The position numbers were made by a program. From the NCBI RefSeq assembly GCF_017348835.2, contig NZ_CP071375.1: a stretch of 64,000 nucleotides of DNA, one strand, 5' to 3'. Source of the stretch: Escherichia coli. GTDB taxonomy: Bacteria; Pseudomonadota; Gammaproteobacteria; Enterobacterales; Enterobacteriaceae. Shown here piece after piece: positions 1 through 3,000 of this stretch (position 1 is its first letter; each line of letters opens with the position of its first letter).

Positions 1-3000
1 TTTAATCAGCGTATTTTTCTTATCCGTCACTTCAATCACCACACCAGTCACCTGTGGGACAACAGGAATAGAAATAACCGCTTTTTGCGCTTTAAAGGTA
101 TACGGATGGTTATAGTTCATTAACAGAATTAGACCGCTGACAATAAATATTCCACCCAGGGCCGCTGTGGGAATGGTCCATTTATTTACGGGAATTTTGA
201 AGATCTTAAACATTGCCCATGCAAAAGCCACATAGGTCAAAATAATCAGTAAATCCATAAGTATTACTCGGCAGAAGAGGATTTGATGTCGGCGAGCTGT
301 TTCTCCAGCCCGGCAATGCGCTGTTGCAGTTGCATAACGGAGGAATCATGGCTTTGCATTCCCCATCCCCGCTCCGGGCGGTAAAGCGTGGCCCAAATCC
401 ACAAAAACGGCCAGATAACATGTAACGTAAAAAGACTCACCCAACCAGCAACATGAATGGCGTCGGCATGAGGATGATTACGTTTTTTAGCAATCAGGTA
501 GGGAATATCATGTAAAATAATAATCCCATAAAATATCACCAGAAATACAAAAATAAGCACTCCCAGTGCAAAATAGTCCAGGAACATATTTCCCTCAGAG
601 AATATAAAAAAGAACAATTAACGCATATTATGAAATGCCATGATGCAGTGCAATTCCCTTATTTATATAACGACATATTGTTTTTTATATACTTCCTGAA
701 GTGTGCTGACTGGCTTTTTAACAGGTCGAGGCTTATCATATTGAAATAATGGAACTATTGGCCAAATTTATGATTAAAAACCGTAAAACATCCACAATGC
801 AGATTAAGCGTATTAAACCTTCAATAATCTACCGTTTATTGCTGATTGTCCTCGGAATACCAATGGTGATTTACGGTCTGGTTTGCCCGCTCACCATCGA
901 AACGCGAGATTAAACTCCTGGCAAAACACGCCCCAGAAACGCACTTTTGTTGGCGTAGTCTGGGTTATTGCACACGTAGGTTTAAAACGTAAATTGTAAC
1001 AACGTGCGCTTTGTTTATGCCGGATGCGGCGTGTACGCCTTATCCGACCTACGGTCAGGTTCCCGTAGGCATGATAAGACGAGTAAGCGTCGCATCAGGC
1101 AATGAATACCCAATGCGACCAGCTTCTTATATCAGAACAGCCCCAACGGTTTATCTGAGTAGCTCACTAGCAGGCACTTGGTTTGCTGGTAATGCTCCAG
1201 CATCATCTTGTGGGTTTCGCGACCGATGCCTGATTGTTTGTAGCCGCCAAACGCCGCATGTGCCGGGTAAGCGTGATAACAGTTGGTCCACACGCGCCCA
1301 GCCTGTATGCCGCGCCCCATCTTATAGGCCAGATTACCGTTGCGGCTCCAGACGCCCGCGCCCAGGCCATATTGCGTATCGTTCGCCAGCTCCAGCGCTT
1401 CTTCCATCGTTTTGAAGGTGGTCACCGCCAGCACCGGGCCAAAAATCTCCTCCTGGAACACGCGCATATTGTTCTGACCAAACAGAATCGTCGGTTCGAG
1501 GTAGTAGCCGTCTTTCAGTTCACCTTCCAGCAGCTTGCGCCGCCCGCCAGTGAGCACGTCTGCGCCCTCTTTTTTACCGATATCAATGTAGTTGAGGATG
1601 GTTTCCAGTTGCCCGTGAGAAACCTGCGCCCCCATTTGCGTCACGCTGTCGAGTGGGTTACCGCTGCGAATGCTTTCGACACGGCGGATGGCGCGTTCCA
1701 TAAAGCGTTCGTAGATTGACTCCTGCACTAAGGCACGACTCGGACAGGTGCAAACTTCGCCCTGGTTAAAGGCAAACAGTGCAAAGCCTTCCAGCGCTTT
1801 ATCGAAAAAGGCATCTTCTTCATCCATCACATCAGCAAAGAAGATATTTGGCGACTTACCGCCCAGCTCCAGCGTCACCGGAATAATGTTTTGCGTTGCG
1901 TATTGCATAATTTGTTGGCCCACTTCCGTTGAGCCGGTAAACGCCACTTTGGCGATGCGTTTCGAGGTCGCCAGATATTCGCCAATTTCCCCACCAGCGC
2001 CATTGACCACGTTCACCACGCCCGGCGGCAGTAAATCACCGACGATTTCCATTAGCAGCAGTACAGAAAGCGGGGTAAGACGTGCGGGTTTCAGCACCAC
2101 ACAGTTGCCCGCCGCCAGCGCGGGAGCCATTTTCCAGCTCGCCATCAGCAGCGGGAAGTTCCACGGGATAATCTGCCCCACCACGCCTAACGGTTCATGG
2201 AAATGATAGGCCACGGTTTCGCTATCAACTTCACTGATCCCACCTTCCTGCGCCCGAATACACGAGGCGAAATAGCGGAAATGGTCAATCGCCAGCGGTA
2301 CATCCGCAGCACTGGTTTCGCGAATGGGTTTGCCGTTATCCCAGGTTTCAGCTGTCGCTAACAGCTCGAGGTTTTGTTCCATTCGATCGGCAATCTTAAA
2401 CAGAATCGCCGCGCGATCCTGCACCGAGGTGTGCGCCCATTTATCTTTCACTTTGTGCGCAGCATCCAGCGCCAGATCGATGTCTCGTTTGCCCGAAGAC
2501 GCCACTTCGCACAGCAGCTGCCCGGTCACCGGCGTCAGGTTCTGGTAATACTCACCATCGGCAGGGGCTACCCATTCGCCGCCAATAAAGTTGTCGTAGC
2601 GGGCTTTTAACTTGATGGGGAAACCATACTCACCGGGCTTAATCTGTGCTGAAGGGGGATTGTTGGTCATGATCGTCTCCTTGCGGTGTGAGGTATAACA
2701 AGGGTAGACGTGGCTGGCGAAATCTTCGCCAGTCAGTGACAGCTTTTCGACGGCAATCACGAATTTACGGGCAAGGGTTACAACGGATAATGCGCGACGT
2801 ACACTGCTTGCTGGTCATTAATTTTCTTCTCTTGCGCAAATCCTTCTTTAACAATCGTCCGTAAATCAGTTCGCGCTGTATTATCAGAGACGCCCAGACT
2901 CGCGCTGGTTTCAGAAACTGTGTACTCTTTCCCCGGATTGGCGAGCATCACATTCAGGAGCGTTACCTGGCGAGGATTCAGGCGTTTAAGCACACCAGAG

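What the first reader, a model, noticed from the sequence alone, without database searches (positions are those of the whole stretch)
1..617. Two paralogous DUF3302 / HlyD-family gene pairs in one window
yiaW-yiaV (1-617) and yibI-yibH (14874-16375) are the same two-gene module: a small DUF3302 membrane protein followed by a HlyD-type membrane fusion protein. Both pairs are on the minus strand about 15 kb apart, and the protein sequences are near-identical in places. Neither pair has an adjacent transporter partner, so their function is unclear. They are also potential substrates for recombination across the Rhs-containing interval.
Basis: seen in the sequence. Interest (0 to 1): 0.3.

Follow-up and report, generated by a model that had tools for sequence, protein, structure and literature searches.

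The report
Two old paralogous yiaWV / yibIH pairs
The window holds two copies of an uncharacterised E. coli two-gene membrane module, a small DUF3302 protein followed by an EmrA-like periplasmic adaptor; the copies are real but ancient paralogues, too diverged to recombine, and already annotated.

Summary
yiaW (264-587, -) and the first 86 codons of yiaV (1-258, -; the gene runs off the window) form one pair. yibI (16013-16375, -) and yibH (14874-16010, -) form the other. Proteins are 75% and 77% identical over their full lengths.

They are the known E. coli y-genes yiaWV and yibIH. The window matches strain PE164.

The recombination idea fails:
- DNA identity is only 67-73%, the longest exact run is 20 nt, and synonymous sites are saturated.
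- None of the genomes inspected among 5,426 shows a deletion or hybrid between the pairs. The two partial matches inspected are IS-mediated deletions.
- In the tree, yiaWV branches outside the clade holding all other Enterobacterales copies sampled except two outlying ones. yibIH is core (5406/5426 genomes); yiaWV is accessory (3800/5426) and is missing together with yiaT-yiaU in the ST131 genome inspected.

"No adjacent transporter" holds, and it holds family-wide. In 114 of 118 loci a DUF3302 gene is followed, at a median gap of 2 nt, by this adaptor subtype. No inner-membrane pump is conserved nearby. Some distant loci add a NodT/TolC-type outer-membrane factor.

My best inference is that DUF3302 is the adaptor's dedicated inner-membrane partner. 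This is ordinary as a finding, with a modest open y-ome question underneath.

The parts
1..258 (-). 5' part of yiaV (codons 1-86 of 378): two N-terminal hydrophobic helices and the start of the lipoyl-like domain of an EmrA-like periplasmic adaptor. The gene continues beyond the window start.
   Evidence: The full gene is L001 17122-18258. Pfam HlyD families.
264..587 (-). yiaW, 107 aa, DUF3302 small membrane protein. Its stop codon lies 5 nt before the yiaV start.
   Evidence: DUF3302, 146.7 bits.
588..600 (-). Ribosome-binding region of yiaW (GAGGGA 5 nt upstream of the ATG).
   Evidence: sequence read directly. Homologues all start at MFL(N/D)YF.
14874..16010 (-). yibH, 378 aa, EmrA-like periplasmic adaptor (MFP). 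It has an N-terminal pair of hydrophobic helices, a lipoyl domain, a hairpin of 56 and 58 residues, a beta-barrel and a conserved C-terminal helix.
16013..16375 (-). yibI, 120 aa, DUF3302 small membrane protein. Its stop codon lies 2 nt before the yibH start, and a GAGG Shine-Dalgarno sequence precedes its ATG.

Best explanation
These are the E. coli y-genes yiaW-yiaV and yibI-yibH. They are two ancient paralogous copies of a conserved, translationally coupled two-gene cassette.

Shown here:
- Each cassette encodes a roughly 110-aa two-helix membrane protein (DUF3302) and a 378-aa periplasmic adaptor of the EmrA/MdtN/AaeA branch.
- Both copies are under strong purifying selection.
- yibIH is the ancestral, core copy, sitting next to mtlA across Enterobacteriaceae.
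- yiaWV is an older-diverged, accessory copy at the aldB/yiaU junction in Escherichia, Citrobacter and Pseudocitrobacter.
- The cassette travels as a unit through Proteobacteria with no canonical pump beside it.

Inferred:
- The DUF3302 protein is the dedicated inner-membrane partner of this adaptor subtype. It would contact the adaptor's own family-specific membrane segments, namely the N-terminal helix pair and the C-terminal helix.
- The adaptor presumably oligomerises like EmrA and reaches a TolC/NodT-type outer-membrane channel with its long hairpin.
- Together they would form an envelope-spanning conduit that lacks an RND, ABC, MFS or PET pump.

The substrate and the energy source are not known. 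The two copies most likely serve the same mechanism under different regulation: yiaWV lies beside the LysR regulator YiaU (CsuR), although the sources I could read name only yiaT and the waa operon as its targets.
For: Identity and annotation.

Paralogue age and selection:
- dN is 0.18, dS is saturated, and dN/dS is about 0.09.
- The yiaWV clade has 100% support, and 34 of the 37 non-aldB copies in the tree group to its exclusion at 81% (31 at 92%); one Atlantibacter, one Serratia and the Alcanivorax outgroup copy fall outside.

Synteny: mtlADR-yibIH-yibF-selAB is conserved across Enterobacteriaceae, whereas aldB-yiaWV-yiaU-yiaT is found only in Escherichia, Citrobacter and Pseudocitrobacter.

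Obligate pairing: in 114 of 118 loci with room downstream, the adaptor follows DUF3302 on the same strand at a median gap of 2 nt.

No conserved pump:
- Neighbour clustering and Pfam scans found LysR regulators, DUF3313 lipoproteins, BhsA-like proteins, a porin, and only sporadic, unrelated transporters.
- Operons pairing an outer-membrane factor with the cassette (OMF-DUF3302-MFP or DUF3302-MFP-OMF), with no pump seen beside them on these short contigs, occur in distant lineages.

Family-specific membrane parts:
- In the adaptor, M1, Y9, K18, F20, P23, W27, H51, P52, R361, R366 and W370 are invariant in 33 diverse sequences, while hairpin length varies.
- In DUF3302, P29, A33, H38, P39, A43, W49, S51, W59, P60 and W65 are invariant.

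Fold: the AlphaFold2 model has pLDDT 81.8, with a hairpin at H97-152/H161-218 and no membrane-proximal domain. The best PDB matches are EmrA chains from EmrAB-TolC, at E 4e-20 and TM 0.60-0.65.

Literature: yiaV is listed as TCDB 8.A.1.1.4, uncharacterised (PMC10971958). YiaU/CsuR controls cell-surface genes (bioRxiv 10.1101/2021.12.22.473864; PMC9308461).
Against: - No experiment links DUF3302 to the adaptor or the adaptor to TolC.
- I could not compute a complex model, because the tool returns no contacts.
- No natural DUF3302-adaptor fusion was found; the apparent long ORFs were frame artefacts.
- A two-helix protein has no known way of energising transport.
- An outer-membrane factor is adjacent in only about 6 of roughly 60 non-enterobacterial loci.
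- Many metagenome contigs are short, so distal partners could be missed.
- Deletions are well tolerated: yibH is used as a neutral integration site (PMC5852967).
- The neighbour-joining tree is shallow in places, and the basal position of yiaWV could reflect faster evolution rather than age.
Confidence: 0.5

Rival explanations
1. Orphan adaptors for a pump encoded elsewhere. YiaV and YibH would dock onto an MFS, PET or ABC transporter at another locus, and DUF3302 would be only a small accessory subunit, comparable to AcrZ or AaeX.
For: The nearest families are EmrA, MdtN and AaeA, all of which work with a pump. The gene order, small membrane protein then adaptor, mimics aaeX-aaeA (my own knowledge of that operon). 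The E. coli pairs have no adjacent outer-membrane factor either, and TolC is always encoded elsewhere.
Against: Canonical adaptors are almost always co-operonic with their pump. Here none is conserved in 114 loci from many lineages. The adaptor's membrane segments and DUF3302 are the most conserved parts of the cassette, which points to each other as partners. DUF3302 shows no similarity to DUF1656 even at E<=10.
Confidence: 0.25
2. Not a transport system. The cassette would be an envelope-structure or stress module that tethers or senses across the periplasm and modulates cell-surface properties.
For: Recurrent neighbours are envelope proteins and regulators: LysR, DUF3313 and DUF4136 lipoproteins, BhsA-like proteins, an OprD-like porin, a YscW-like lipoprotein, and YiaT of the MipA/OmpV family. 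YiaU/CsuR affects LPS genes, biofilm formation and complement sensitivity (bioRxiv 10.1101/2021.12.22.473864; PMC9308461). Deleting yiaW raises Ca-transformation efficiency (cited in PMC12844161). A yibI mutant adheres less well and is less fit in urine (PMC5404293). Deleting yibH in K. pneumoniae lowers plaque formation by evolved phages (PMC11796411).
Against: The fold is a complete efflux-type adaptor with a long TolC-type hairpin. Operons containing an outer-membrane factor exist. The reported phenotypes are scattered, small and indirect.
Confidence: 0.17
3. One reading: a recent duplicate pair that acts as direct-repeat substrate for homologous recombination, deleting or rearranging the Rhs-containing interval.
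For: Both pairs are in the same orientation, 15.8 kb apart, with 75-77% protein identity.
Against: DNA identity is 67-73% and the longest exact run is 20 nt. dS is saturated. No hybrids or inter-pair deletions were seen in the genomes inspected among 5,426; the two partial matches inspected are IS-mediated, and the inspected strain lacking yiaWV keeps the interval. In the tree, yiaWV lies outside the clade holding yibIH and nearly all other Enterobacterales copies.
Confidence: 0.02
4. One copy is a decaying, functionless duplicate.
For: yiaWV is absent from about 30% of E. coli genomes. Deletions are tolerated (PMC5852967, PMC5495878).
Against: dN/dS is about 0.09 and both pairs have intact reading frames. 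yiaWV orthologues are 87% identical between E. coli and Citrobacter. yiaWV is full-length in 3769 of the 3800 genomes that carry it.
Confidence: 0.04

Closest known systems
EmrA of EmrAB-TolC (MFS-type tripartite pump; PDB 8ZAL/8ZAR, 4TKO)
   Same: EmrA is the best hit by both sequence and fold (phmmer 1e-11; Foldseek 4e-20, TM 0.60-0.65). Both have an N-terminal membrane anchor, a lipoyl domain, a long alpha-hairpin and a beta-barrel, and neither has a membrane-proximal domain.
   Different: Identity is only about 20%. The EmrA/EmrK subfamily model scores 111-115 bits against a cut-off of 390.8. YiaV and YibH have two N-terminal hydrophobic helices instead of one, plus a family-specific C-terminal helix. 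No emrB-like pump gene is adjacent, and a DUF3302 gene is always upstream.
AaeX-AaeA-AaeB and MdtN-MdtO-MdtP (PET/FUSC-type efflux systems of E. coli)
   Same: A small two-helix membrane protein lies directly upstream of an inner-membrane-anchored adaptor of the same broad branch. MdtN and AaeA are among the top NCBIfam hits.
   Different: The small protein is DUF3302, not DUF1656, with no detectable similarity between them. No AaeB/MdtO-type pump is adjacent in any of 114 loci. The equivalog scores are far below their cut-offs, at 63-113 bits against 376-400.
yiaW/yiaV and yibI/yibH as annotated in E. coli K-12 (y-ome; TCDB 8.A.1.1.4 for YiaV)
   Same: These are the same genes. RefSeq annotates them as 'DUF3302 domain-containing protein' and 'HlyD family secretion protein'. 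They are listed as uncharacterised in PMC11551758 and PMC10971958.
   Different: There is no difference in identity. This work adds the pangenome distribution, the age of the paralogy, the family-wide obligate pairing and the absence of a conserved pump.

Membership tests
DUF3302 (Pfam PF11742) | Match to the family HMM above the gathering score | tested here: met
   YiaW scores 146.7 bits and YibI 140 bits against a cut-off of 32, covering profile positions 1-76 of 77.
DUF3302 (Pfam PF11742) | Two hydrophobic helices flanking the conserved loop motif (IPY-IAK-R-HPH-DAIH) and the WP-LWIWA segment | tested here: met
   An alignment of 26 diverse members has P29, A33, H38, P39, A43, W49, S51, W59, P60 and W65 invariant, and both window proteins carry all of them. 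Membrane topology itself was not tested.
Periplasmic adaptor / membrane fusion protein (HlyD family, TC 8.A.1) | Lipoyl-like, alpha-hairpin and beta-barrel domains | tested here: met
   CusB_dom_1, HlyD_D23 and HlyD_3 are above their Pfam cut-offs in both proteins. The AlphaFold2 model shows the hairpin at H97-152/H161-218 and beta domains. The top 50 Foldseek PDB hits are all adaptors.
Periplasmic adaptor / membrane fusion protein (HlyD family, TC 8.A.1) | Encoded next to its inner-membrane transporter (RND, ABC, MFS or PET) | tested here: not met
   No transporter is adjacent in the window or in PE164. No transporter family is conserved next to the cassette in 114 loci.
Periplasmic adaptor / membrane fusion protein (HlyD family, TC 8.A.1) | Works with a TolC-type outer-membrane factor | tested here: inconclusive
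   A NodT/OEP-type outer-membrane factor is adjacent in L081-L083, L097 and L118, and lies nearby in L163. None is adjacent in Enterobacterales. No interaction test was possible.
EmrA/EmrK subfamily (TIGR00998) and the MdtN, AaeA and EmrA equivalogs | Score above the curated NCBIfam cut-off | tested here: not met
   TIGR00998 scores 111-115 bits against 390.8. MdtN scores 111-113 against 376. AaeA scores 63-75 against 400. EmrA scores 52-58 against 563.
AaeXAB-type system (DUF1656 + adaptor + PET pump) | The small protein belongs to DUF1656, and a FUSC/PET pump is adjacent | tested here: not met
   There is no DUF1656 hit even at E<=10, and no adjacent pump.
Anti-phage defence systems (PADLOC) | Match to a defence-protein model | tested here: not met
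   There are no hits apart from a coiled-coil-type match of YibH to LmuB at E 0.004.
Recombination-proficient direct repeats | Long stretches of near-identical DNA (perfect runs of at least about 25 bp, high overall identity) | tested here: not met
   DNA identity is 67-73% and the longest exact runs are 20 and 18 nt. No recombinant was seen among the E. coli genomes inspected.

The most novel reading that the evidence does not exclude
The DUF3302 + adaptor cassette may be a previously unrecognised kind of tripartite envelope system. A tiny two-helix protein with invariant His/Pro/Trp positions would take the place of the canonical RND, ABC, MFS or PET pump beneath an EmrA-like adaptor and a TolC/NodT channel. 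It would act as a minimal gate or proton-coupled element. E. coli would then keep two differently regulated versions.
Probability: 0.25. Interest if true: 0.65.

Novelty: already known. Interest (0 to 1): 0.2.

Why it matters
As stated, the finding re-describes two annotated E. coli K-12 y-gene pairs, and its one forward-looking idea (recombination) does not hold. The useful residue is a sharper question about the y-ome. This adaptor subtype is always coupled to DUF3302 and never to a conserved pump, across at least several hundred protein clusters (819 clusters at 50% identity). It therefore probably has a mode of action different from textbook tripartite efflux. Because E. coli carries both copies, has TolC, and tolerates deletions, the question can be tested directly with double knock-outs, pull-downs and structure work.

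Tried and rejected
1. Recombinant or hybrid genes between the pairs. Megablast of each pair against 5,426 complete E. coli genomes, followed by inspection of the weakest partial match for each pair, showed an ISKpn26-mediated and an IS1-mediated deletion, not hybrids.
2. A conserved third gene. I clustered neighbours in 23 non-syntenic Enterobacterales loci and 84 metagenome loci and ran Pfam scans on putative operon partners. Only LysR regulators, DUF3313 and BhsA-like proteins, and the occasional outer-membrane factor recur. SulP and AAE transporters each appear once.
3. Natural DUF3302-adaptor fusions. The apparent 486-567 aa ORFs in L115 and L122 are out-of-frame upstream extensions in high-GC DNA. 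L110 is an internal-deletion remnant.
4. A link between DUF3302 and DUF1656 (AaeX) or any other Pfam family. There is none; a weak Imm_superinfect hit (E 0.003, below cut-off) in one distant member was judged to be compositional.
5. A defence-system reading. PADLOC was negative.
6. Solved structures for DUF3302. The only hits are designed coiled coils matching the C-terminal tail.
7. Promoter and terminator scans gave nothing above shuffled expectation.
8. A fused YibI-linker-YibH AlphaFold run was prepared but not submitted. The tool reports no inter-residue contacts, so it could not test the interface.
9. The Shimada et al. 2022 CsuR paper is not held. Its content is cited only through other papers.
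Full report
**What is in the window**

The first 21 kb of the window differ by 2 bases from E. coli strain PE164 (NZ_CP114128.1). On the minus strand lie yiaW (264-587, 107 aa) and the first 86 codons of yiaV (258 down to 1). yiaV runs off the window start, and I read its full 378 codons from the matching genome (L001 17122-18258). Further along, also on the minus strand, lie yibI (16013-16375, 120 aa) and yibH (14874-16010, 378 aa).

The real start of yiaW is the ATG at 587, behind a GAGGGA ribosome-binding site, and all homologues begin there. In each pair the small gene's stop lies 2 or 5 nt before the adaptor's ATG.

**The paralogy is real and strong**

- YiaW and YibI are 75% identical (E 3e-62), and 75 of the first 80 residues are identical.
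- YiaV and YibH are 77% identical with no gap. Identity is 88-95% in the beta-barrel and C-terminal segments and 52-67% in the hairpin and one loop.
- Pfam gives DUF3302 at 147 and 140 bits (cut-off 32). For the large proteins, CusB_dom_1, HlyD_D23 and HlyD_3 are above their cut-offs.

**The pairs are old, and they are not recombination substrates**

- At the DNA level the pairs are 67-73% identical. The best block is 80% over 245 nt, and the longest exact runs are 20 and 18 nt.
- Of the 292 codons that encode the same amino acid in yiaV and yibH, 163 differ. dN is 0.18, dS is saturated (undefined under NG86, about 1.9 under LWL85), and dN/dS is about 0.09.
- From established knowledge, RecA-dependent exchange in E. 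coli needs about 23-27 bp of perfect identity and drops steeply with divergence.
- yibIH is found in 5406 of 5426 complete E. coli genomes, full-length in 5383. yiaWV is found in 3800, full-length in 3769.
- The weakest partial match of each query proved to be an IS-mediated deletion. ISKpn26 removes yibH and most of yibI in ECCHD184, and IS1 removes yiaO through most of yiaW in CFSAN064036.
- Genomes lacking yiaWV (for example ST131 and UTI89) match only from aldB onward. In the ST131 genome I inspected, the whole yiaT-yiaU-yiaV-yiaW block is missing, while aldB, selAB, yibF and an intact yibIH are kept. A deletion between the two pairs would have removed exactly those genes.

**Evolutionary history**

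The arrangement mtlADR-yibI-yibH-yibF-selAB is conserved in Escherichia, Citrobacter, Klebsiella, Enterobacter, Lelliottia, Trabulsiella and Atlantibacter; in Kluyvera and Raoultella the yibI-yibH-yibF-selAB part is conserved, but mtlA was not seen beside it. The arrangement aldB-yiaW-yiaV-yiaU-yiaT occurs only in Escherichia, Citrobacter and Pseudocitrobacter. Enterobacter, Lelliottia and Leclercia have aldB-yiaU-yiaT without yiaWV.

A bootstrapped neighbour-joining tree of the concatenated proteins gives the following:
- The aldB-linked yiaWV clade has 100% support.
- It falls outside a group holding 34 of the 37 other copies in the tree, with 81% support (92% for a 31-member subset). This group includes the Yersinia, Pantoea and most Serratia copies; one Atlantibacter copy, one Serratia grimesii copy and the Alcanivorax outgroup fall outside it.
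- YibIH is closer to the Serratia and Yersinia copies (79.4%) than to YiaWV in its own genome (77.7%).

yiaTUVW also has a lower GC3 (0.48-0.53) than aldB (0.64) or yibIH (0.59-0.64). So yiaWV is either an old paralogue or a horizontally acquired copy, and not a recent local duplication. Some Citrobacter and Pluralibacter genomes carry a third copy.

**What the proteins are**

YiaV and YibH belong to the inner-membrane-anchored adaptor branch.
- The top NCBIfam matches are EmrA/EmrK, MdtN and AaeA, all far below their curated cut-offs.
- The best PDB sequence hit is EmrA.
- An AlphaFold2 model of YibH (pLDDT 81.8) shows two N-terminal hydrophobic helices (2-19 and 29-50), lipoyl strands, a hairpin of 56 and 58 residues (97-152 and 161-218), a beta-barrel, and a C-terminal helix (355-374). 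It has no membrane-proximal domain.
- Foldseek puts EmrA chains from the EmrAB-TolC cryo-EM structures first, at E 4e-20 and TM 0.60-0.65.

DUF3302 has two hydrophobic helices around a strongly conserved loop (IPY-IAK-R-HPH-DAIH), followed by a variable tail with a short heptad segment. It matches no solved structure, no other Pfam family and no NCBIfam model.

**Family-wide context**

DUF3302 has 819 clusters at 50% identity with E<=1e-3. I fetched 73 genomic and 80 metagenomic loci, plus a few more by exact look-up.

- In 114 of 118 loci with at least 300 nt downstream, an adaptor of this subtype follows on the same strand, at a median gap of 2 nt.
- No inner-membrane transporter family is conserved beside the cassette.
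- Recurrent neighbours are LysR regulators (7 of 23 non-syntenic Enterobacterales loci), DUF3313 lipoproteins, YdgH/BhsA-like proteins, and assorted outer-membrane proteins or lipoproteins.
- Several distant loci carry a NodT/OEP-type outer-membrane factor immediately before DUF3302 or immediately after the adaptor, with no pump seen beside them on these short contigs.
- Within the adaptor, the most conserved parts are the N-terminal 55 residues and the C-terminal helix (invariant K18, F20, P23, W27, H51, P52, R361, R366, W370). Hairpin length differs by about 60 residues between the 378-aa and 317-aa forms.

**Mechanism**

Shown: the cassette is an obligate, translationally coupled pair; it is under purifying selection; it has an EmrA-like adaptor fold; no pump is conserved nearby; and an outer-membrane factor is sometimes adjacent.

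Inferred, at about 0.5 confidence: DUF3302 is the adaptor's dedicated inner-membrane partner, and with a TolC-type channel the pair forms an envelope-spanning assembly that does not use a canonical pump.

Rivals:
- The adaptor serves a pump encoded elsewhere, and DUF3302 is an accessory subunit (0.25).
- The cassette has a non-transport envelope or surface role (0.17).
- One copy is a decaying, functionless duplicate (0.04).

**Literature**

The literature offers only scattered hints:
- The genes are listed as uncharacterised (PMC11551758, PMC10971958).
- yibI is urine-induced in UPEC, with a competitive index of 0.33 and reduced adhesion (PMC5404293).
- yibH is used as a neutral integration site (PMC5852967).
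- yiaW was hit by IS1 in macrophage-evolved clones, without a phenotype of its own in the phagosome-maturation assay (PMC5495878).
- Deleting yiaW raises transformation efficiency (cited in PMC12844161).
- Deleting yibH in K. pneumoniae lowers plaque formation by evolved phages (PMC11796411).
- The neighbouring LysR regulator YiaU/CsuR controls yiaT, the waa operon and cell-surface properties (bioRxiv 10.1101/2021.12.22.473864; PMC9308461).

**Verdict**

The genes and their paralogy are already annotated, so novelty is 'already known' and interest is low (0.2). The one reading that would matter is that this is a pump-less tripartite system built around DUF3302, which I put at about 0.25.

Noticed in passing
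L004 (ST131) versus L001 15287-18587; window <1-587: The four genes yiaT-yiaU-yiaV-yiaW are missing together in the ST131 genome inspected, where GH127 abuts aldB. About 30% of complete E. coli genomes (including UTI89) lack yiaWV. Enterobacter, Lelliottia and Leclercia keep yiaU-yiaT but have no yiaWV.
   Followed up: partly
window 9710-14414 (rhsA plus frameshifted Imm57 gene); L004 16811-18626: The Rhs element between yibF and yibH is a variable insertion. ST131 has yibF only 70 nt from yibH. In this window the Rhs immunity gene (Imm57 family) is annotated as frameshifted.
   Followed up: partly
window 2778-4073 (-): A Fic-family gene sits between aldB and yiaY in PE164 and ST131 but is absent from strain CFSAN064036 (L003), so it is another strain-variable insert in this region.
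   Followed up: no
window 758-913 (+): A small annotated hypothetical ORF (WP_001719070.1, 51 aa) with one hydrophobic stretch lies in the yiaW-aldB spacer, on the opposite strand to both neighbours. A slightly shorter version is annotated in CFSAN064036.
   Followed up: no
L002 7952-9090; L003 8141-9056: There are two independent IS-mediated truncations of the cassettes. ISKpn26 (IS5-like) leaves only the first 90 nt of yibI in strain ECCHD184. IS1B leaves only the first 56 nt of yiaW in strain CFSAN064036 and removes yiaO through yiaV.
   Followed up: yes
L110 7740-8468: In one soil-metagenome locus the DUF3302 reading frame continues directly into the last ~25 residues of the adaptor (…IRRILLRMRSWQNYIFMEGH). 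This looks like an in-frame internal deletion of almost the whole adaptor gene.
   Followed up: partly
L051, L052, L071: Some Citrobacter and Pluralibacter genomes carry a third DUF3302-adaptor copy, forming a separate clade with 100% support. A LysR gene lies on the same strand, immediately downstream in L051 and L052 and after a LuxR-type gene in L071.
   Followed up: partly
L069 and L073 (Serratia); L045, L064, L072, L163: A DUF3313 lipoprotein gene recurs next to the cassette. In Serratia it lies directly upstream on the same strand, with a divergent LysR gene, which suggests a three-gene operon in that lineage.
   Followed up: partly
L092, L095, L096, L123, L134: In several metagenome contigs the cassette follows a conserved set of genes. 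By eye these look like a Tat-signal iron-sulfur reductive-dehalogenase-like enzyme, a small membrane protein and a polytopic membrane protein. I did not check them with Pfam, and the association may be mere synteny among related organisms.
   Followed up: no
L001 10593-15157 (just upstream of the window start): In PE164 only a 141-nt remnant of the IclR-type regulator yiaJ remains. The yiaK-to-sgbE operon seen in other strains is missing, and an AraC/MFS/GH127 trio sits in its place next to yiaT.
   Followed up: no
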